Assembly: GCA_017441065.1 (NCBI GenBank)
Contig: JAFSAI010000033.1
Coordinates: 2,581-66,580, forward strand
Origin: Bacilli bacterium
Lineage (GTDB): Bacteria; Bacillota_I; Bacilli_A; RF39; UBA660
Direction: 5' to 3'
Length of the DNA stretch: 64,000 nucleotides
The notes beneath the pieces were generated by a model, which was not told where the DNA came from, did not search any database, and saw only the letters and a program-made list of their open reading frames with translations. Of this stretch, positions 9,626 to 46,825 are shown in pieces (within the stretch, counting starts at the first letter, position 1; each line of letters starts with the position of its first letter). The translations under genes were made by a program, and so were the position numbers.

Positions 9626-9858
9626 AGAAAATTTTGTTGAGAAAATCAAAAACTCTACTTACCTGTAGAGTTTGTTCACACAATTTGTTTTATTTCAATA
9701 TATTATTATAGGTGATTATATTTATGCCTTTCAAAAACAATCCAACTATATTTATTTTATTTGCAATTGGTTTAGCTATACTTATTTGCTATCAATTACT
9801 TATAACTTTCATTTTACCATTTAGATACAATATTTTTATATTAACCGTCGAAATCATA

Positions 9859-10758
9859 TTATTCATCAGTTGTGTTGCTAGAATAATATGGTGCTAAAAA
9901 AGCTTCTGTTTTATATATATAATCTAATTGTTTTCTCATTTCCTTACAACATTCAAATTCATTATCTGTAAATTTAATTTCTGGCACTAAAGATATCAAA
10001 ACAAAAAATAGTTTTTGTTCATGTTCAGAAAGAGATGCCACTCCCAAATATTTTTGAAATATCGTCGAAAATTCTAATTCCCAAAAATTATTTTGATATA
10101 GTTTAACTAAATCTAAAACAGGAGTATCAAATTTCGCTTTATCCCAACTAATTAAATAATCTTTATCACTTCTAATATAATGATCTAAACTTAAATTATT
10201 ATGAATGAGAGATATCCTCTCATTCTTTTTACTACTTACTAATGAATACCAATTATCAAGTTCATTTTCACTAAAATTCAAAGCAGAAATTATCTTTGAA
10301 TAGTTCCTTACAAATTGATATTTAGATGGTGACATATATATTTCTTTTATAAATAATTCATAATATCTTAAATAGTAATCTTTTAAATAAAGAATATTAT
10401 TTTTTATATCTTCATAAATTGCTTTATAAGTTTCTTCACTTACTTCTTTATTAAAAGATGTTTTTGAATGTAAAAGACCAACCAAATTAATTAAATCTTC
10501 ACTCTTTTGCGGATTTATAACGTCTTCATCTTCCACATATTCATATACATAAGCATCATCTCTACTATCTCCATATATGTTTGGAAAGTAGTCAAAATTT
10601 CTTGATTTAAGATAATTAAATATACTAGGTAAATCTTTATTTTTAGGTTTCTTTTTTACTACAAAATTACCACTGGTTGTTTCTAAAATAGTACAACTAC
10701 CTTTAATTGTATATCTATATGGTTTATATAAAGATTTTAAAGATTCTAATTTATTCAT
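9859..10758 (-). CDS. CotS/YsxE-like kinase-fold spore coat protein
   Basis: 299 aa, composition like a CotS-family phosphotransferase. Lies immediately downstream of a SpoVID-like gene, as in the B. subtilis spoVID-ysxE operon, and overlaps it by 8 nt. Confidence 0.45.
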   Translation of the reverse strand: MNKLESLKSLYKPYRYTIKGSCTILETTSGNFVVKKKPKNKDLPSIFNYLKSRNFDYFPNIYGDSRDDAYVYEYVEDEDVINPQKSEDLINLVGLLHSKTSFNKEVSEETYKAIYEDIKNNILYLKDYYLRYYELFIKEIYMSPSKYQFVRNYSKIISALNFSENELDNWYSLVSSKKNERISLIHNNLSLDHYIRSDKDYLISWDKAKFDTPVLDLVKLYQNNFWELEFSTIFQKYLGVASLSEHEQKLFFVLISLVPEIKFTDNEFECCKEMRKQLDYIYKTEAFLAPYYSSNTTDE

Positions 10759-19482: not shown

Positions 19483-19686
19483 CTATCCTTTTAACTTTTC
19501 TATCATATTATTGATAAATTCAAATTCACTATCATCTAGCACTTTTAATTTATCTTCTTCTAATCTACCACCATATATATTTTCAGTTAATCGATCTTTG
19601 TATATAACATATTTTTTATTATTCTTTTCTACTTCAAATAATATATCAAAATCTCTTTCTGTACCCTTATTATTCCTTAATATCAT
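19483..19686 (-). CDS. DUF1292 (YrzB-like) small protein
   Basis: 67 aa, acidic. Lies between ruvX and mltG as in B. subtilis. Confidence 0.7.
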   Translation of the reverse strand: MILRNNKGTERDFDILFEVEKNNKKYVIYKDRLTENIYGGRLEEDKLKVLDDSEFEFINNMIEKLKG

Positions 19687-20098
19687 TTTGACACCTTTTT
19701 AAATAACTTTCTAAAATAATACATGCTGCTATACTATCTATTCTATTCTTTGTATTCCTTACATTATCATTATTTAAATGTACTATATCTTCAGCAGTTT
19801 TTGTAGTTAGTCTTTCATCAACTAATTCTACTTGGATATTTTCATTTTCTAACATACTTTTAAATTGCATACTTCTATTACCAGCAAAGCCAATACTTCC
19901 ATCCATATTTTTAGGAAGTCCTAATACCACTAACTTAATATCATAATCATTAATAATTTTTTTTAATTCATTTAATGCAGCATTATAATCTTCAAAATTA
20001 AACTTTATTACTTTTAATGGACTAACTAAAGTGTTTGTTTTATCAGTTATACTAATTCCTAAAGTTTTAGTACCTAAATCTAAACCTAAATATCTCAT
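19670..20098 (-). CDS. ruvX: Putative pre-16S rRNA nuclease / Holliday junction resolvase-like RuvX (YqgF)
   Basis: Begins MRYLGLDLGTKTLGISITD, the YqgF signature. 142 aa. Confidence 0.9.
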   Translation of the reverse strand: MRYLGLDLGTKTLGISITDKTNTLVSPLKVIKFNFEDYNAALNELKKIINDYDIKLVVLGLPKNMDGSIGFAGNRSMQFKSMLENENIQVELVDERLTTKTAEDIVHLNNDNVRNTKNRIDSIAACIILESYLKRCQNDIKE

Positions 20099-20341
20099 TT
20101 ATCTTCCTTGATAATTATTAATCAATGCAAGTAATACTTCTTCTCTCTTTAAAGTTTTTATTTTTTCTCTTGCACCCTCATAATTTGATATATATGTAGG
20201 ATCTCCAGTCATTAGGTAACCTACTAATTGATTTTCTGCTTTATAACCTTTTCTATTTAATGATTCGATTACTTCATTTAATGTAAGTAAAATCATTTCT
20301 TGTCTCAAAGCAGCTACATTAAAAATACTAGTTCTGTCCAT
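20099..20341 (-). CDS. ireB: IreB-like UPF0297/DUF965 protein (YrzL)
   Basis: 80 aa with GYKAENQLVGYLMTGDPTYI matching the UPF0297 core. Upstream of ruvX, as in Bacilli. Confidence 0.8.
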   Translation of the reverse strand: MDRTSIFNVAALRQEMILLTLNEVIESLNRKGYKAENQLVGYLMTGDPTYISNYEGAREKIKTLKREEVLLALINNYQGR

Positions 20342-20419
20342 AAAAATACCTCATCGCTTCTTTAATAATTTTATCAAATAACACCTTTCATTTCAATATT
20401 AACCAAAAATTACTAAATA

Positions 20420-20442
20420 AGAAAAACTCGCTTTTGCGAGTT
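20420..20442 (-). terminator. Rho-independent terminator of surface-protein gene C
   Basis: Hairpin ACTCGC-TTTT-GCGAGT followed on the minus strand by TTTTTCTTATTT. Confidence 0.7.
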
Positions 20443-20449
20443 AATACTT

Positions 20450-20505
20450 TAGGAAGAAAGATATGTGTGTATCTTTCAAATTTATTTTAACGTCTTCATT
20501 GACGA
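20450..20505 (-). repeat. Conserved 3' UTR element, copy 2
   Basis: TTAGGAAGAAAGATATGTGTGTATCTTTC...TTATTTTAACGTCTTCATTGACGAT. Differs from copy 1 by a 1-nt deletion. Confidence 0.75.
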
Positions 20506-21645
20506 TTAATTTATAATATATGGATCAGTTGATGTTCCGGTTCCACCTGTTATTTTTACATCAGATTTCAAATAGAATACTGGACGAACCAAACGAGCGC
20601 TGTCCAAATAATTAAGTGTGGGAATTCCATCACTCGATGCCAAAGTCCATCCGCGAAAACTACTAGAACCACCTAAACGACTCATTAACCACTCTAGAAC
20701 ATTTGTAAGTGGAACATTATTGGATAAATGTATCCAAGCAGTTTTTGCATTACTAGGATTTTCTGGCGATCCTCCGCTAGCATAGGCGTAGTAATAATCG
20801 TGTATATACATCAAACCTATTTTTGCACTTATGGTATTCGCCCAACTATCTTCAATTGCATATATTGTTGGGCCATCATAACCACCATTACTTGTTGCAT
20901 CCCCATACTTCCACGTTGTTGTTGCTATTTTACTTTCCCATCCTGTCGGAACATATGTATTATTTAATAAGTAATCATTTCCGTTTAATGCTATATATAT
21001 TAAACTATTTGGCCATATTACATCTGTTGTATCGTCACTCCACCATGCTACTGATGTATTTAAGATTTCTTTCTTTATTAGTTTCATTTGCCCCTCTTCA
21101 GCAATTCCTATTATTCTATACATATATGTAGCTGTATTATTTGTACAATCCAACTTATTGTTTGTTCCAAAACATATATGATTATCTACATTGTCAGTTC
21201 CTTGATATCTATACATCCCTGCTTCTATTGTAGTGTTTAATCCACTAGATGGATTCTGCAAAAGGTATTCACTAGCATTAGGCCTACTAAAATACAAATA
21301 GCAATAACTAGTATTTCCTGTATCTACTGTAGCTATATTATTGGTACTATCATAGCTAAGTACACCATCTAACTTATTTCCATTTATATCTATACACCCT
21401 GACATAGAATCATTATATGTATATCCACTTGTTGGCCATGTACTCGTTGTATCTTCTTTATATGTTCCGTCTTCTTGCTCTAACATTATTGCAAACATAT
21501 TTGTATTATTTATATTTAGATTTACTTCATCTAATGTATTATTCTTATTACCATATGATTTGTACATTAGAAACAATGTACAACTTTCTATTATCACTAA
21601 CACTAATATTACTATCACACACATTTTTTTGTTAACAACTTGCAT
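20506..21645 (-). CDS. Surface-anchored protein, family member C. C-term ITGGTGTSTDPYIIN.
   Basis: ORF track. N-terminal 120 aa nearly identical to member B. Divergent centre. Conserved C-terminus. Confidence 0.8.
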   Translation of the reverse strand: MQVVNKKMCVIVILVLVIIESCTLFLMYKSYGNKNNTLDEVNLNINNTNMFAIMLEQEDGTYKEDTTSTWPTSGYTYNDSMSGCIDINGNKLDGVLSYDSTNNIATVDTGNTSYCYLYFSRPNASEYLLQNPSSGLNTTIEAGMYRYQGTDNVDNHICFGTNNKLDCTNNTATYMYRIIGIAEEGQMKLIKKEILNTSVAWWSDDTTDVIWPNSLIYIALNGNDYLLNNTYVPTGWESKIATTTWKYGDATSNGGYDGPTIYAIEDSWANTISAKIGLMYIHDYYYAYASGGSPENPSNAKTAWIHLSNNVPLTNVLEWLMSRLGGSSSFRGWTLASSDGIPTLNYLDSARLVRPVFYLKSDVKITGGTGTSTDPYIIN

Positions 21646-21659
21646 ATTCTTTCTTCCTT

Positions 21660-21712
21660 ATCTATTTTATAAGGTAAGTATATATTACCCCCCCCCGAAG
21701 TCAAATTTTTTG
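21660..21712 (-). promoter_or_regulatory. Paralogous promoter with a G9 tract (C9 on plus, 21688-21696) in the spacer
   Basis: TTGACT (plus 21699-21704 as AGTCAA), a 16-nt spacer containing G9, then TATACT (plus 21677-21682). Flanks identical to the 9585-9625 promoter. Confidence 0.75.
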
Positions 21713-21826
21713 GAATATTTTGTTATTAACTTCTAACCACAAAAAAAGAATAGATTACTATTCTTTGAATATTTTATCTACCAAATACACTTGTATATTA
21801 TTCTAACTTATAATATACTTTTCTTA

Positions 21827-21895
21827 GGAAGCGTGAATTTCACGTCGCCTGTTTAATTAGATGACGTTATTCTAATACTAGAATGACGTTTTTTA
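21827..21895 (+). ncRNA. Candidate cis-antisense small RNA, convergent with and overlapping the 3' end of the 34-aa peptide ORF
   Basis: Plus-strand promoter TTGTAT (21791-21796), 17-nt spacer, TATACT (21814-21819). Small hairpin CGTGAA-T-TTCACG. Intrinsic terminator ATTCTA-ATAC-TAGAAT + TGACGTTTTTTATTT (21868-21895) lying inside the peptide ORF's last codons. Confidence 0.35.
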
Positions 21896-21971
21896 TTTCT
21901 ATTACCAATACAATCAATAATAGCAATATTATTATTACTAATAAAAACTTGTTTAGAGTTTTTAATTTCAT
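21867..21971 (-). CDS. Small hydrophobic peptide, 34 aa (MKLKTLNKFLLVIIILLLLIVLVIEIKNVILVLE). Candidate type I toxin-like membrane peptide.
   Basis: Not in the ORF track because it is under 60 aa. Strong SD GAAGGAGGTGA 7 nt upstream of the ATG. Single TM helix with a charged tail. Extended -10 promoter (TTTACA-N17-TGaTTAAAT) about 90 nt upstream. Its own terminator lies at 21735-21760. Confidence 0.5.
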   Translation of the reverse strand: MKLKTLNKFLLVIIILLLLIVLVIEIKNVILVLE

Positions 21972-22109
21972 ACGCTCATCACCTCCTTCTCAGGACCAAT
22001 ACTACCTCCCCGTTAAGTTAGCTTTTAAGCGACGCCACATTCAACACTTCCATATTCATTTAATCACAATAGATATGTATTGTAAATTAATTTCGTATGT
22101 CATAAATCG

Positions 22110-22139
22110 ACAAAAAAATATCACTATAAAGTGATATTT
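22110..22139 (-). terminator. Rho-independent terminator after the P-loop ATPase gene
   Basis: Hairpin ATATCACT-ATAA-AGTGATAT flanked by A6 and T runs (bidirectional). Confidence 0.7.
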
Positions 22140-23168
22140 TTATATATGCAATTTTCTTTCTGGTACTATGAAACCAGTAAATATTGGATTTTTATTTATT
22201 TCAGTATCTATAAAATGTAATAAATATTGATCATATTCTGCTGGTGTTAATTCATCCATTTTTCTATATAACTCTCTTACAGCATGAGCCATATCAAACA
22301 TACTACCGTTAGTTTTTTCTATCATTGAAGCAATTGTTTCATCTTTAATTACCAATGAAATTGGCATTCTATATTTCATTTTTCCAGAGAAAATCATCTC
22401 TCTTAAATTCATTCTATCCATTAATTCTTTTACTACTTCAACATCCTTAGTGTAATCTACCATAACAAGATCATTATCTTCACTAAGTTCATTTTGTCTT
22501 TCTTGACTATATACTACTTTTTTATCAGAAATAGTTGCAAGTAATCCTACATATTGTGACAATACATTGTATATGTATTTTTGATAAGTTTGACTTGATG
22601 AACCAATAGAATCAAAATCATCTATAGCTAAAGTTATTGTTTTATAATCTAGTACATTGGTAGCTATACTCAAAAATTCTTCTAATAATATTTCAGGATG
22701 TTCTAATAATACTTTATCAATTCTTTCTGGTTTTTTATTATAATTACCAACCAAATATATTAAATCAACTTTTCTATAGATAACATCTACTCTACTTTCA
22801 AGTCCAACAAAACATTCCATATATTTTTGTGGATGATTTTGTTTTATGAATAATAACATCTTTTTAATAATTAAACATGTTTGGAATAATCTAATTAATT
22901 CAGAATCAGGAATTTGAACAAATTCACCATATCTAACTGTAGCATCAATTAATGCATGTTCTGGGTCATTATAACCATTTATGTATTCTTTAAGTACTAC
23001 TGATTTTCCACAAGCCGTATCTCCAACTAAGAATACTTTACTTTTCTTTTTACTCTTTATTTCATCTATTACCCTATTAACAGGCTCTAAGCTTATCTGC
23101 CTACATTTTTCGTCTGACATAATTGCCATAAATCTTCTCTCTTTTCTGTGAATAATATTATAATCCAC
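22140..23168 (-). CDS. P-loop NTPase of unknown function (AAA-like)
   Basis: Walker A VGDTACGKS and Walker B ITLAIDDFD. 342 aa with no recognisable family signature beyond the P-loop. Sits 19 nt downstream of the membrane protein gene. Confidence 0.6.
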   Translation of the reverse strand: MDYNIIHRKERRFMAIMSDEKCRQISLEPVNRVIDEIKSKKKSKVFLVGDTACGKSVVLKEYINGYNDPEHALIDATVRYGEFVQIPDSELIRLFQTCLIIKKMLLFIKQNHPQKYMECFVGLESRVDVIYRKVDLIYLVGNYNKKPERIDKVLLEHPEILLEEFLSIATNVLDYKTITLAIDDFDSIGSSSQTYQKYIYNVLSQYVGLLATISDKKVVYSQERQNELSEDNDLVMVDYTKDVEVVKELMDRMNLREMIFSGKMKYRMPISLVIKDETIASMIEKTNGSMFDMAHAVRELYRKMDELTPAEYDQYLLHFIDTEINKNPIFTGFIVPERKLHI

Positions 23169-23187
23169 AAAAATTAAATAGTAAATA

Positions 23188-23763
23188 TTATTTTAATAAA
23201 AATGAAAAATATTCAAATATAAATGGAGATATAAAATAAAGAATTATATTGGTTAAAAGGACAAATAATATAATATATAAACTATTTTTGAAATTAAATA
23301 TCAATTTATCAAATATTACTTCATCTTTTTTATATATAAACATTCCTATAATAAATCGGCCTATATTAATTGTTTTTTGAATAAAACAGATAATTAATAT
23401 AAAGGATATAAGTTTATTTATAAGTATAAATAAACTTGAATAAATTAAACCACTTATACCAAATGATACTAAAAAAATATTTATTAAAAATCCAATAGAT
23501 AAACTTTCATAAAATAAAAATAATATACTTAAAGGCACTCCTATAATAAAGAACGATAATACTAATAATAAAGACATGATTACTAAATATTTAATAATAA
23601 AATTATATCGGAAATTATTATAATTCTTTAAAGTATCAGCAATTTGAATTTGTGTTTCGGTACTCAAAAAATGATAATATATAAAACCACATGCTATACC
23701 AATTAGGACTACAATAAATATAAACATTAAATATTTTTTATTTTTCTTTAATATTTGCTGCAT
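23188..23763 (-). CDS. Polytopic membrane protein, possibly SpoIIM/DUF95-like
   Basis: 191 aa. Basic N-terminus followed by about 5 TM helices. Its size and topology resemble SpoIIM, but the assignment is not secure. Confidence 0.3.
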   Translation of the reverse strand: MQQILKKNKKYLMFIFIVVLIGIACGFIYYHFLSTETQIQIADTLKNYNNFRYNFIIKYLVIMSLLLVLSFFIIGVPLSILFLFYESLSIGFLINIFLVSFGISGLIYSSLFILINKLISFILIICFIQKTINIGRFIIGMFIYKKDEVIFDKLIFNFKNSLYIILFVLLTNIILYFISPFIFEYFSFLLK

Positions 23764-23853
23764 ATTCTTATCACCATTTAAGAATATGCAAAAACTCTTT
23801 TAAAAATTACTTAAATATGATATATTTTAGATATATTGAAGGTGGGATTTTTT

Positions 23854-23949
23854 ATGAATAAAAAAACTAGAAAAATTCTAGTATGGGTAATGCTATTCCT
23901 TATGGTTGCATCTTTCGTAGCAAGTATTGCAATATATGCACTAGCTTAA
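23854..23949 (+). CDS. Small hydrophobic peptide, 31 aa (MNKKTRKILVWVMLFLMVASFVASIAIYALA)
   Basis: SD AAGGTGGG 8 nt upstream of the ATG. Single TM. Its 3' end overlaps the pilD stop convergently by 9 nt. Confidence 0.4.
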   Translation: MNKKTRKILVWVMLFLMVASFVASIAIYALA

Positions 23950-24711
23950 TGAAAAGAAAACCAATAAATTAGTAAACTTTTCAATGAAAACAAACATTAT
24001 AATCATTGATGATATTAAAAATGGACCAAAAGGAAGTTCATTTTTTTTATTGAAATAAAGTGTTGCCATAGCATATGGTAATGCTAAAAATGCTGCAAAC
24101 ACAAGTGATATTAAACTAAGTCTAAATCCTATTCCAGGATATCCTAAAGTTAATCCGATTAAGAAACATAATTTAATATCTCCTCCACCAAGAGATTCTC
24201 TTTTATATATTTTATCGCCTATTATTTTTATCAAATACATAACTAAAAATAAAGCTATACCATAAAGAACAGAATAAATTGTATTTGTTAATCCTACTTC
24301 AAAATATCTTATTATAATTATTAAAATACTTCCTATTACTAATGGCGAATCTAATATAATCATATATTTAAAATCACTTACAAATATTATTAATGCCACA
24401 GATATTATTATTAAGTAAATTCCTAATTTTAAAGAAATATCAAAGTACAAATAACCTACTAAGAAAAGAATTCCTGTAGCAAGTTCCATTATTAAATGTT
24501 CTTTACTAATTTTTTTACCACAGTTACGACACTTACCTAATTGAATTATATAAGATACCAAAGGTATCAATTCATACCATTTTAATTCTTTTTTACAAGA
24601 ATCACATCTACTTCTTCCTGTAATTACATTTTCTTTTAAAGGTAATCTTGTTCCTATTACTAAATAGAAGGAGCCTAAAATGGCTCCTATAATAAACACA
24701 CAAACTCCCAT
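23941..24711 (-). CDS. pilD: Prepilin peptidase (A24 family; PilD/ComC)
   Basis: N-terminal tetra-Cys (CDSCKK...CRNCGKK) zinc motif. Polytopic. GGGDIKL and catalytic Asp-containing motifs typical of A24 peptidases. Confidence 0.85.
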   Translation of the reverse strand: MGVCVFIIGAILGSFYLVIGTRLPLKENVITGRSRCDSCKKELKWYELIPLVSYIIQLGKCRNCGKKISKEHLIMELATGILFLVGYLYFDISLKLGIYLIIISVALIIFVSDFKYMIILDSPLVIGSILIIIIRYFEVGLTNTIYSVLYGIALFLVMYLIKIIGDKIYKRESLGGGDIKLCFLIGLTLGYPGIGFRLSLISLVFAAFLALPYAMATLYFNKKNELPFGPFLISSMIIMFVFIEKFTNLLVFFSLS

Positions 24712-45679: not shown

Positions 45680-46825
45680 TTATATTAAATAAAACACTGT
45701 ATATAATAAGAATGCTACTAATAATGTATATACTATTAATCCATTAATAGTTTCTCTTTTTGTACTTTTATATTTTACTCCTACTATCATAGTAGCTAAG
45801 TATCCACCAATAAGTCCACCAATATGAGCACCATTATCTATTCCTGACATAGTAAATCATAAAAATAAATTTACAATAATAATCGGTATAATTTGACTAG
45901 TTAGTGCATTTGATAGATATAATCTATAATGATAGCCAAAATATAATAAAGCTCCCATTAAACCAAATATAGCACCACTAGCTCCTACTGATAAAGAATT
46001 TTCATAGAATATAATACTAAATAAGCTTCCCATTAAAGCACTTAATATATAAATAATAAAGAATTTTACTTTACCTAAATAAGTTTCTACTTGAGTACCT
46101 ATTATCCATAAAGAATACATATTAACAGCTAAGTGAATAACACTTCCGTGTAAGAAAGCATTAGTAATTAATCTAAATACTTCTCCATTTAGTACTAATC
46201 CTCTGTTATTTGCTCCAAGTAGAATTAATGATTCAGTAAAATTATTTGTAAGAAATAATGATAATAAATACATTACTATACAAGCAATAATTAATAATTT
46301 AGTAACTATTATTTTCTTTGGTTTGAAAACATTTTCAAACTTTTTATTTTCTGCTTCAGTTTTCTTATTAATATCATCAGTAACATCTATAATTTTATCT
46401 AAATTATCAGTCTTTTTAAATTTATTTGTCTTTATCTTTGGATATACACTACTTAAGAATTTATCTTTTTTTACATCTTCTATATCAGTAATATTAACTG
46501 TTGCAATTAAGTTATCTTCTTCAGTAACTTCTACTCCTTTATTTAAATCTAAACATATATTTAATGCATTCATTTTAAATGATAATGTCTTCTTCTTAAT
46601 TTGTTTTATTACAAATTGCATTTTAAACATATCCATATTATATTGTTCTGTATTATGAATATATTTAGAATTAATTCTTACTATTTTATATGGTGCATCT
46701 AAATTTTCTAACCATATTTCATTTTTAACCCCTTGCACATTTATTGGAGTATAATTCTCCTCCGTTACAAAATAATGTACAAGACTCATAATCATTTCAT
46801 CTTTATTATTTAATATTGTGCTCAT
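45680..46825 (-). CDS. Rhomboid family intramembrane serine protease (YqgP/GluP-like) interrupted by a single in-frame TGA at 45857-45859
   Basis: Cytoplasmic N-domain, then TM core with the GASGAIFGL catalytic Ser motif (track ORF 45857..46825). After the in-frame TGA, the reading frame continues unchanged as FTMSGIDNGAHIGGLIGGYLA (catalytic His motif) to TAA at 45680-45682. Terminator hairpin CCCTTCACT...AGTGAAAGGG downstream. Confidence 0.6.

What the first reader, a model, noticed from the sequence alone, without database searches (positions are those of the whole stretch)
21735..22100. Candidate type I toxin-antitoxin-like locus: strongly translated 34-aa hydrophobic peptide with a convergent, 3'-overlapping small RNA
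The unannotated minus-strand ORF MKLKTLNKFLLVIIILLLLIVLVIEIKNVILVLE (21971-21867) has a near-perfect SD (GAAGGAGGTGA), an extended -10 promoter (TTTACA-N17-TGaTTAAAT) and an ~90-nt GC-enriched leader. A 3' UTR hairpin (AAAGAATAG-ATTA-CTATTCTTT + T7) terminates it at about 21740. On the opposite strand a promoter (TTGTAT-N17-TATACT) would give an ~70-nt RNA ending at an intrinsic terminator lying inside the last codons of the peptide ORF. That overlapping-3'-ends geometry is the one seen in fst/RNAII, txpA/RatA and bsrG/SR4. The module sits in accessory DNA next to a phase-variable surface gene.
Basis: partly seen in the sequence, partly recalled or inferred. Interest (0 to 1): 0.6.

Follow-up and report, generated by a model that had tools for sequence, protein, structure and literature searches.

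The report
New type I toxin-antitoxin-like module
A self-contained 400-bp cassette encodes a 34-residue membrane peptide and a converging antisense RNA; it recurs, with the same architecture, at other genomic sites in uncultured gut Bacilli, and it looks like a new family of type I toxin-antitoxin system, though toxicity is untested.

Summary
Comparison with relatives shows they form a conserved unit, not chance AT-rich motifs.

I found six further instances in metagenome contigs: five close and one divergent. Flanking genes are known for four of them and differ from the window's. Where the contigs reach, all keep these parts:
- an upstream insulating hairpin and the mRNA promoter;
- a GC-rich leader (49% GC against 26% for the window);
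- a strong Shine-Dalgarno sequence (SD, the ribosome-binding site) and a 34-36 aa K-rich/hydrophobic ORF;
- an opposite-strand terminator inside the last codons;
- a 3'UTR element, an opposite-strand TTGTAT-N17-TATACT promoter and an mRNA terminator.

The ORF stays open through about 16-35 substitutions and one in-frame 6-nt indel. Both terminators carry compensatory changes.

In the window's subfamily, the first 25 nt of the mRNA pair with the 3'UTR segment that the antisense RNA covers (-32 to -37 kcal/mol; 0 of 500 shuffles reach this). Blocking that segment lets the leader close over the ribosome-binding region.

The peptide matches nothing in Pfam, NCBIfam, PHROGs or PDB, and the RNA matches no Rfam family. 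A 78%-identical relative lacks the cassette at this site.

Best reading: a new family of type I toxin-antitoxin with the Gram-positive 3'-overlap geometry (bsrG/SR4-like). Transcription, toxicity and rescue remain untested.

The parts
22112..22140 (-). Upstream insulating hairpin plus T-run (AAAATATCACT-TTAT-AGTGATATTTT-TTT). It overlaps the stop codon of the upstream P-loop gene and forms the left edge of the cassette.
   Evidence: Inverted repeat I11, 11/11 complementary. The same hairpin precedes the cassette in L013 behind a different gene. L012, L014, L015 and L016 carry a second hairpin type at the same place.
22090..22113 (-). Conserved box TTGTCGA-N-ATGACATACGAAAT immediately upstream of the -35 hexamer. 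Function unknown; it could be an UP element or an operator.
   Evidence: Homology between cassettes begins here. The box is near-invariant in 6 sequences and recognisable in the divergent L017.
22058..22086 (-). Promoter of the peptide mRNA: TTTACA, 17 nt, TG-A-TTAAAT (extended -10).
   Evidence: Read from the sequence. Among the close copies the -35 reads TTTACA except in L014 (TTTATA). The -10 TTAAAT is kept in all, with one base changed in the extended -10 of the truncated copy L015 (TGTTTAAAT). L017 has TTTACA-N17-TAAAAT.
21972..22051 (-). 5' leader, about 80 nt and 49% GC. Nt 1-25 (22051-22027) form the 5' arm of a long-range helix. GCGUCGC(U/C)U can alternatively pair with the SD region. 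A small UCCU/AGGA hairpin covers part of the SD (GAAGGAGGTGA, 21989-21979).
   Evidence: Folds. Duplex test. GC content. The leader is almost invariant among the close homologues.
21867..21971 (-). ORF for the 34-aa peptide MKLKTLNKFLLVIIILLLLIVLVIEIKNVILVLE. It has a K-rich N-terminus, a 16-18 residue hydrophobic core, a conserved (E)IK motif and a charged C-terminal residue. This is the putative toxin.
   Evidence: ORF listed. Homologues come, aligned as A3. The ORF is 34 aa in 5 sequences and 36 aa in L017. Chance of the ORF staying intact is about 0.1 for 16 substitutions and 0.011 for 35. GRAVY is 2.0.
21826..21894 (+). Predicted convergent antisense RNA, about 70 nt. Its 5' hairpin AGG-AAGCGUGAAUUUCACGUCG-CCU is followed by a terminator hairpin (21863-21890) and a U-run. 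It is complementary to the last ~9 codons and 41 nt of the 3'UTR. This is the putative antitoxin.
   Evidence: Terminator scan and fold, z = -6.5. Consensus structure of 5 homologues has 2 compensatory pairs in the terminator stem. The G-U pairs form only on this strand.
21791..21819 (+). Promoter of the antisense RNA: TTGTAT, 17 nt, TATACT.
   Evidence: Located. Both hexamers and the 17-nt spacing are identical in the window, L013, L014 and the divergent L017, where the spacer is 12/17 identical.
21827..21850 (-). 3'UTR element AGGCGACGTGAAATTCACGCTTCC. It is the 3' arm of the long-range helix with the mRNA 5' end and also the complement of the antisense RNA's first 24 nt.
   Evidence: Minimum-free-energy folds of the window, L013 and L014. 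Duplex energies are -31.7 and -36.8 kcal/mol against -15 +/- 2.9 for shuffled 5' ends, 0 of 500. The element is identical in every copy that reaches it, while the adjacent spacer varies.
21741..21766 (-). Intrinsic terminator of the peptide mRNA (AAAGAATAG-TAAT-CTATTCTTT plus TTTT). It forms the right edge of the cassette.
   Evidence: Read from the sequence and a hairpin in all folds. L014 keeps the stem through a G-C to A-U change. L017 has a different hairpin (UUCG loop) at the same place.

Best explanation
This is a stand-alone type I toxin-antitoxin-like cassette of about 400 bp (22140-21741, minus strand).

Proposed parts and steps:
1. A constitutive-looking promoter makes a ~310-nt mRNA with a structured GC-rich leader. 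It encodes a 34-aa single-helix membrane peptide, the presumed toxin.
2. A convergent ~70-nt antisense RNA starts in the 3'UTR and terminates inside the last codons.
3. Pairing of the two RNAs over ~70 nt would create an RNase III substrate that destroys the mRNA.
4. In the window's subfamily, pairing would also evict the mRNA's 5' end from its docking site in the 3'UTR. The freed leader segment GCGUCGC(C/U)U can then pair with the SD/start region and shut translation. The exposed 5' end becomes open to 5'-dependent decay.
5. An upstream hairpin insulates the toxin promoter from read-through.

Shown here: the architecture, its conservation, the selection keeping the ORF open, and the predicted RNA structures.
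Inferred: transcription of both RNAs, peptide toxicity, and the direction of regulation.
For: (1) All sequence elements are present.

(2) Six further instances were found.
- Five close copies, L012-L016, came from phmmer and a follow-up protein search.
- One divergent copy, L017, came from a DNA scan.
- Homology starts just upstream of the -35 hexamer and ends at the mRNA terminator.
- Flanking genes differ. L012, L015 and L016 lie behind an Ala-tRNA-synthetase-like C-terminus. L013 lies behind another gene. L017 lies beside an IS3-type transposase pair. The window copy lies behind a P-loop gene.

(3) The peptide is 34 aa in five sequences and 36 aa in L017, through an in-frame indel.
- K2, K4, K8, the hydrophobic core and K27 are kept.
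- Chance ORF survival is about 0.1 for 16 substitutions and 0.011 for 35.
- The 83-aa ORF on the opposite strand is not conserved.

(4) The antisense promoter hexamers and 17-nt spacing are identical in all four copies that reach them. The antisense terminator has two compensatory pairs, and its G-U pairs work only on that strand.

(5) The 5'-3' helix is significant in the window and L013 and appears in the minimum-free-energy fold of the window, L013 and L014. With the antisense-covered segment blocked or not yet transcribed, the ribosome-binding region becomes less accessible:
- SD probability unpaired falls from 0.21-0.32 to 0.04-0.15 in L013 and L014.
- In the window, AUG accessibility falls from 0.81 to 0.11.
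This parallels the 4-bp to 8-bp SD helix reported for bsrG/SR4 (PMC3834814).

(6) The geometry matches Gram-positive type I families as summarised by T1TAdb, which also lists SD/anti-SD sequestration and 5'-3' long-distance interactions as hallmarks of toxin mRNAs.

(7) The cassette is accessory. It is absent from L004, and other genes fill the slot in L005-L010.
Against: - There is no expression, toxicity or rescue data.
- The peptide has no detectable homology to any known toxin family. Small hydrophobic peptides are not necessarily toxic.
- dN/dS is unremarkable: 0.2-0.9 against the window, and above 1 among L013, L014 and L016, with very few synonymous changes. The amino-acid sequence is therefore only loosely constrained.
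- The long-range helix is not significant in the divergent L017 (-13.0 kcal/mol, 246 of 500 shuffles). That part of the mechanism may be subfamily-specific.
- In the window copy, predicted SD accessibility does not fall on blocking (0.25 to 0.40). Only the AUG closes.
- L017 was found by searching for the exact 3'UTR element, so that element's identity there is not independent evidence.
- Only one copy was found in the 64-kb window and the 88-kb contig. None was found in GTDB representative genomes, plasmids or phages.
Confidence: 0.62

Rival explanations
1. The peptide is a non-toxic small membrane protein, for example a modulator of a transporter or sensor, whose expression is tuned by a cis-antisense RNA. 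The RNA architecture is real, but this is not a toxin-antitoxin system.
For: There is no toxicity evidence and no homology to any toxin family. Constraint on residue identity is loose. The organism encodes other conserved small membrane ORFs, such as the 31-37 aa ORF convergent with the prepilin peptidase gene, which is called in several relatives.
Against: The cassette moves as an insulated unit among unrelated neighbours, with no constant partner gene. It is absent from a close relative. Layered control (upstream insulator, SD hairpin, 5'-3' helix, overlapping antisense RNA) is typical of genes whose leaky expression is harmful.
Confidence: 0.24
2. The peptide is an exported or released membrane-active peptide, such as a PSM-like cytolysin or a leaderless bacteriocin. 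The antisense RNA would control its production rather than protect the producer in the classical way.
For: The peptide is short, helical and strongly hydrophobic with charged ends. From my own knowledge, some type I toxins such as PepA1 are also cytolytic.
Against: No immunity, transporter or processing genes travel with the cassette. There is no match to any Pfam or NCBIfam family. A hydrophobic core with GRAVY of about 4 favours membrane retention.
Confidence: 0.08
3. The unit is a regulatory element, such as a leader peptide or attenuator, for the downstream phase-variable surface gene.
For: It sits 45 nt upstream of that gene's poly-G promoter.
Against: A terminator with a T-run and a separate promoter lie between them. 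The other two paralogous surface genes in the window lack the cassette. The cassette occurs next to unrelated genes elsewhere.
Confidence: 0.03
4. The ORF is a chance feature of a non-coding structured RNA locus and is not translated.
For: Open frames of 34 codons are not rare in 26% GC DNA; my estimate is about 5% per frame. Gene callers did not call the ORF in the same-species contigs.
Against: The SD, 7-nt spacer and ATG are invariant in the close homologues. The ORF survives many substitutions and an in-frame indel. Charge and hydrophobicity pattern are kept.
Confidence: 0.03

Closest known systems
bsrG/SR4 (and bsrE/SR5, bsrH) of Bacillus subtilis
   Same: - A small hydrophobic peptide (BsrG is 38 aa) is encoded on an mRNA of a few hundred nt.
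- A convergent antisense RNA overlaps the 3' end, including the ORF end.
- A short helix at the SD lengthens on antitoxin binding, 4 to 8 bp in bsrG (PMC3834814). The folds here predict an analogous change.
   Different: - There is no sequence similarity in the peptide or the RNA.
- The antisense RNA here is shorter, about 70 nt.
- Here the SD-closing strand is released from a 5'-3' helix.
- No prophage context is evident.
txpA/RatA and yonT/SR6 (B. subtilis)
   Same: The antisense RNA lies on the 3' side and overlaps the ORF end. Antisense-promoted mRNA decay is the expected mode of action (abstract of PMC5848175).
   Different: Those toxins are 58-59 aa and unrelated in sequence, and the overlaps are longer. 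No 5'-3' docking of the mRNA ends is described in the text I read.
fst/RNAII (par of pAD1) and Fst/Ldr-like loci
   Same: The two RNAs are transcribed convergently, the peptide is about 33 aa and hydrophobic, and the antitoxin RNA is about 65-70 nt.
   Different: - In par the RNAs interact through direct DNA repeats near both 5' ends and overlap only at a shared terminator. The interaction lies outside the overlap.
- Here the repeat is inverted, so the antisense 5' end resembles the mRNA 5' end instead of complementing it.
- Here the terminators are separate.
- There is no Fst_toxin Pfam match.
hok/Sok and aapA1/IsoA1 (Gram-negative)
   Same: A long-distance pairing between the 5' and 3' ends of the toxin mRNA governs its activity. 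This feature is listed as a hallmark by T1TAdb.
   Different: In those systems the antisense RNA targets the 5' part of the mRNA. Here it targets the 3' arm of the helix itself. There is no mok-like leader ORF and no HOK_GEF match.

Membership tests
Type I toxin-antitoxin systems (class) | A small (under ~60 aa) hydrophobic peptide predicted to span the membrane, encoded on its own mRNA | tested here: met
   The ORF is 34 aa, GRAVY 2.0, core value 4.0, with charged ends. It has its own promoter and terminator.
Type I toxin-antitoxin systems (class) | An antisense RNA gene with its own promoter and terminator, complementary to the toxin mRNA | tested here: met
   A conserved TTGTAT-N17-TATACT promoter and a terminator with a U-run lie on the opposite strand, giving ~70 nt of overlap. 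This is met at sequence level only; transcription is unproven.
Type I toxin-antitoxin systems (class) | Toxin mRNA folds that restrain translation (SD/anti-SD pairing, 5'-3' long-distance interaction) | tested here: met
   A local SD hairpin is predicted in all copies. A 5'-3' helix is significant in the window's subfamily but not in L017.
Type I toxin-antitoxin systems (class) | The peptide is toxic when expressed, and the RNA neutralises it | not testable with these tools
   This needs inducible expression and rescue experiments.
Fst/RNAII (par) family | Peptide matches the Fst/Ldr-type toxin profile | tested here: not met
   No toxin family appears among Pfam hits even at E up to 10 for any of the 6 peptides.
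Fst/RNAII (par) family | Direct DNA repeats give complementarity between the 5' regions of the two RNAs, and the RNAs share one bidirectional terminator | tested here: not met
   The repeat here is inverted (I10). Two separate terminators lie at 21863-21890 (+) and 21766-21741 (-). Pairing between the antisense RNA and the mRNA 5' region is not above shuffles in the window or L013.
BsrG/SR4, BsrE/SR5, TxpA/RatA families | Sequence homology of the toxin peptide or the RNAs | tested here: not met
   Pfam, NCBIfam and PHROGs give no toxin match. Rfam gives no match beyond chance-level hits.
BsrG/SR4, BsrE/SR5, TxpA/RatA families | The antisense RNA lies on the 3' side and overlaps the end of the ORF | tested here: met
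   The antisense RNA at 21826-21894 overlaps the ORF at 21867-21894. The family definition is taken from T1TAdb.
hok/Sok | Hok peptide profile, a mok leader ORF, and a Sok RNA targeting the 5' leader | tested here: not met
   There is no HOK_GEF match. The in-frame upstream reading is closed by a stop in the window and open only incidentally in the homologues. The antisense RNA lies at the 3' end.

The most novel reading that the evidence does not exclude
The antitoxin RNA's 5' end mimics the 5' end of the toxin mRNA. Both predicted RNAs begin GGAAG-GUGAAU-CGUCGCCU-like, because the two segments are an inverted repeat in the DNA.

The mRNA would normally dock its own 5' end on the 3'UTR element. 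This circularised form is stable and has an accessible start region. The antisense RNA would compete for that same element. It would evict the mRNA 5' end, which then folds back over the ribosome-binding site and becomes exposed to 5'-dependent nucleases.

This would be an end-displacement switch not described for the known type I families I compared. It would be carried by a new toxin family that appears restricted to uncultured gut Bacilli.
Probability: 0.25. Interest if true: 0.65.

Novelty: new member of a known kind. Interest (0 to 1): 0.5.

Why it matters
Type I systems are hard to find by homology. This one was missed by gene callers and matches no profile library.

It adds a candidate new family in an uncultured low-GC Bacilli lineage, with a compact, fully delimited cassette that could be synthesised and tested directly.

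If the predicted competition between the antisense RNA and the mRNA's own 5' end for one 3'UTR site is real, it would be a simple natural RNA switch. It would link mRNA end-to-end pairing, translation and decay, and would be useful for understanding toxin mRNA control and as a design for portable RNA regulators.

It also marks a variable insertion slot between the P-loop gene and ireB, next to phase-variable surface genes.

Tried and rejected
- **Rfam.** A permissive scan of 20000-24000 and a gathering-threshold scan of the whole window gave only chance-level hits and one tRNA.
- **Protein profile libraries.** Pfam, NCBIfam, PHROGs and PDB searches of the peptide and its alignment gave nothing meaningful.
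- The search for homologous proteins and the search for related loci do not accept a 34-aa query or the alignment.
- **Exact look-up of the peptide.** It is not on record, so gene callers do not call it.
- **Synteny through the upstream P-loop protein.** Relatives L004-L011 have no cassette. This was useful as evidence that the cassette is an insertion.
- **Public DNA scans.**
  - The leader pattern gave 0 hits in GTDB representative genomes and viral contigs.
  - The 19-mer of the 3'UTR element hit only GC-rich coding sequence in unrelated phyla and two GC-rich viral contigs. All are chance matches.
  - Plasmid and phage BLAST gave nothing real.
- **A second copy.** None was found in the window or the same-species contigs.
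- **SprA1AS-style trans pairing.** Pairing of the antisense RNA with the mRNA 5' region is not above shuffles in the window or L013.
- **The 83-aa ORF on the + strand (21883-22134).** I rejected it because it is broken in L014 and L017.
- **Genetic code 4.** An in-frame TGA in a rhomboid gene suggested it, but TGA is a genuine stop in at least three genes.

Full report
**1. The observation**

The window is 26% GC.

- A hairpin with a T-run lies at 22140-22112.
- The promoter is TTTACA (22086-22081), 17 nt, TGATTAAAT (22066-22058).
- The leader is about 80 nt from a predicted start near 22051 and is 49% GC.
- The Shine-Dalgarno sequence (SD) GAAGGAGGTGA lies at 21989-21979, 7 nt before the ATG.
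- The ORF 21971-21867 encodes MKLKTLNKFLLVIIILLLLIVLVIEIKNVILVLE.
- The mRNA terminator AAAGAATAG-TAAT-CTATTCTTT plus T-run lies at 21766-21741.

On the plus strand, TTGTAT (21791-21796) and TATACT (21814-21819) are 17 nt apart. A 12-bp hairpin at 21863-21890 followed by a T-run is the only terminator-like site in 21400-22400, against 0.2 expected from shuffles. The RNA between them, about 70 nt, folds at -26.5 kcal/mol, z = -6.5.

GGAGGTGA is unique in the 64 kb. AGGAGG occurs 9 times, all on the gene-bearing strand. Besides this site, 3 precede the starts of long ORFs (358-537 aa) and 1 a 62-aa ORF.

Promoter-like hexamers alone are not significant in this AT-rich DNA: 10 found against 8.3 expected. 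A single sequence therefore could not settle the matter.

**2. Is it conserved?**

The peptide is too short for two of the search tools and is not called as a gene in the collection.

- A full phmmer scan of 1.84 billion representatives gave one hit, P0011. It is 79% identical over all 34 residues (E = 8.9e-4) and was called as 57 aa because the caller read through the leader in frame.
- Searching with P0011 gave four more proteins. Their contigs are L012-L016.
- An exact search for the 3'UTR element in JGI metagenomes gave a much more divergent copy, L017.

Alignment shows that homology begins at a box TTGTCGA..ATGACATACGAAAT just upstream of the -35 hexamer. It runs to the mRNA terminator and stops there.

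Flanking genes differ:

| Copy | Neighbours |
|---|---|
| Window | P-loop gene upstream, poly-G surface gene downstream |
| L012, L015, L016 | Ala-tRNA-synthetase-like C-terminus upstream |
| L013 | A different upstream gene |
| L014 | Upstream flank not informative (see section 7); a different gene downstream |
| L017 | A different upstream gene; an IS3-type transposase pair downstream |

The unit is therefore discrete and has moved.

In the same species it is fixed at this site in every contig that reaches it. The closest other species, L004, has a 78%-identical P-loop protein. There the P-loop terminator is followed directly by the ireB promoter. The window carries about 1.75 kb extra, made of the cassette plus the surface gene. 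More distant relatives hold other genes in that slot.

**3. Coding evidence**

Five sequences keep a 34-aa ORF. L017 keeps 36 aa through an in-frame 6-nt difference.

Invariant residues are M1, K2, K4, T5, K8, L10-I14, L16, I26, K27 and L31. Substitutions in the core are among I, L, V, M, A, S and T.

Random substitutions at AT-rich composition leave the start, frame and stop intact with probability of about 0.10 for 16 changes and 0.011 for 35. Survival of the ORF across lineages is therefore unlikely by chance.

dN/dS is 0.2-0.9 against the window and above 1 among L013, L014 and L016, with almost no synonymous changes there. Selection seems to act on being a charged-ended hydrophobic helix, not on residue identity. 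From my own knowledge, this is usual for type I toxins.

The 83-aa ORF on the opposite strand is broken in L014 and L017.

**4. RNA evidence**

*Antisense RNA.*
- Both promoter hexamers and the 17-nt spacing are identical in the window, L013, L014 and L017. The spacer is 12/17 identical in L017.
- The consensus fold has an invariant 5' hairpin and a terminator stem with two compensatory pairs and several one-sided changes that keep pairing.
- Its G-U pairs would be C-A mismatches on the mRNA strand, so the hairpin is better on the antisense strand. That strand is also where the U-run lies.

*mRNA terminator.* It keeps its stem through a G-C to A-U change in L014. L017 has a different hairpin at the same position.

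*Long-range helix.*
- The full-length mRNA folds at -76 kcal/mol, z = -4.6.
- In the window, L013 and L014 the minimum-free-energy fold pairs nt 1-25 (22051-22027) with the 3'UTR element AGGCGACGUGAAAUUCACGCUUCC (21850-21827).
- Duplex energy is -31.7 (window) and -36.8 kcal/mol (L013), against -15 +/- 2.9 for shuffled 5' ends, 0 of 500.
- That element is exactly the complement of the antisense RNA's first 24 nt. The antisense 5' end therefore resembles the mRNA 5' end, because the two are an inverted repeat in the DNA (I10).

*Effect on the ribosome-binding region.*
- When the antisense-covered segment is blocked, or not yet transcribed, the leader segment GCGUCGC(C/U)U pairs with the SD/start region.
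- SD probability unpaired falls from 0.21-0.32 to 0.04-0.15 in L013 and L014.
- In the window the SD does not close (0.25 to 0.40), but AUG accessibility falls from 0.81 to 0.11.
- In bsrG/SR4, antitoxin binding at the 3' end extends a 4-bp SD helix to 8 bp and blocks translation (PMC3834814).

*Caveats.*
- L017 shows no significant long-range helix (246 of 500 shuffles reach its energy). It has a stronger local anti-SD hairpin instead.
- L017 was found through the 3'UTR element, so that element's identity there is not independent evidence.

**5. What it is and how it probably works**

The cassette has every sequence-level hallmark that T1TAdb uses for type I systems. It has the organisation listed there for Gram-positive families, with the antisense RNA on the 3' side overlapping the ORF end.

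I conclude it is a type I toxin-antitoxin-like module. The ~70-nt antisense RNA pairs with the last codons and the 3'UTR. That should trigger duplex-dependent decay. In the window's subfamily it should also free the leader to close the ribosome-binding region and expose the 5' end.

Toxicity of the peptide, transcription of both RNAs, and the sign of the effect of the 5'-3' helix are all inferred.

**6. Comparison with known families**

There is no match in Pfam, NCBIfam, PHROGs or PDB for any of the six peptides. Rfam gives nothing either.

- **bsrG/SR4 and txpA/RatA:** the module works like these but is not a member of either family.
- **fst/RNAII:** it differs in repeat logic and in having separate terminators.
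- **hok/Sok and aapA1/IsoA1:** it shares the idea of 5'-3' pairing, but there the antisense RNA targets the 5' part of the mRNA.

Nothing similar was found in plasmid or phage records. The two exact patterns tried found nothing real in GTDB representative genomes or viral contigs.

The source organism is labelled 'MAG: Bacilli bacterium'.

**7. Verdict**

This is a real, conserved, mobile sORF/antisense cassette. It is most likely a new family of a known kind of system. Specialist interest is moderate, and higher if the end-displacement switch is confirmed.

A point I could not resolve is why several short-read contigs end inside the cassette (L002, L003, L012, L016, L041, L042). That pattern would fit a repeat present in several copies or strains, but I could not test it. 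L014 also begins with an inverted copy of the promoter-proximal box, which looks like an assembly fold-back.

Noticed in passing
window 21704-21677 (-), 9620-9590 (-), 45440-45410 (-); L001-L003, L039, L040: Three paralogous genes start at 21645, 9560 and 45378 (N-termini MQVVNKK.../MRVVNKK..., possibly lipoproteins). Each has the promoter TTGACTTC-G(8-9)-TAATATATACT, with the poly-G tract between the -35 and -10 hexamers. At the 21645 gene the tract is G9 in the window, L002, L003 and L040, but G8 in L001 and L039. In L039 and L040 the sequence just upstream of this promoter matches the paralogue at ~9650, which suggests gene conversion.
   Followed up: partly
window 45680-46825 (-), TGA at about 45859-45857: A rhomboid-like gene has an in-frame TGA between the GASG serine motif and the NGAHIGG histidine motif. 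TGA is a genuine stop in at least three other genes of the window. This therefore looks like a pseudogene, a sequencing error or a rare recoding event, not genetic code 4.
   Followed up: partly
window 9724-9897 (+): A 57-aa hydrophobic ORF (MPFKNNPTIFILFAIGLAILICYQLL...) lies on the strand opposite almost all genes. An AGGTGA motif sits 8 nt upstream. The ORF converges on and overlaps the 3' end of the 299-aa gene at 9859-10758, just upstream of another poly-G surface gene.
   Followed up: no
window 23836-23949 (+); L001 7698-7793, L005 5183-5281, L010 5182-5277: A 31-37 aa membrane ORF (…KKTRKILVWVMLFLMVASFVASIAIYALA) converges on and overlaps the 3' end of the prepilin peptidase gene. It is called at the same place in relatives whose neighbouring P-loop protein is only 36-39% identical. 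It is probably a real conserved small protein.
   Followed up: no
L015 1-604: This is a truncated copy of the cassette. The promoter spacer is 1 nt shorter, the -10 is altered, and the ORF diverges after codon 22 into unrelated sequence that continues into another gene. It is likely a decayed or recombined copy.
   Followed up: partly
L017 709-1874 (-); L010 8370-8870: Mobile-element traces lie beside the cassette or its slot. An IS3-type OrfA/OrfB pair sits immediately downstream of the divergent cassette in L017. What reads like an IS200-type transposase remnant, judged by eye only, lies in the equivalent intergenic slot of L010.
   Followed up: no
L001 11548-11976 (same contig as L038 6031-6459) vs window 19670-20098: The RuvX/YqgF gene is called as two pieces (59 + 78 aa) in contig ERZ27256748 k141_1476506. 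It is intact (142 aa) in the window, L002 and L003. This is either a strain-level disruption or an assembly error.
   Followed up: no
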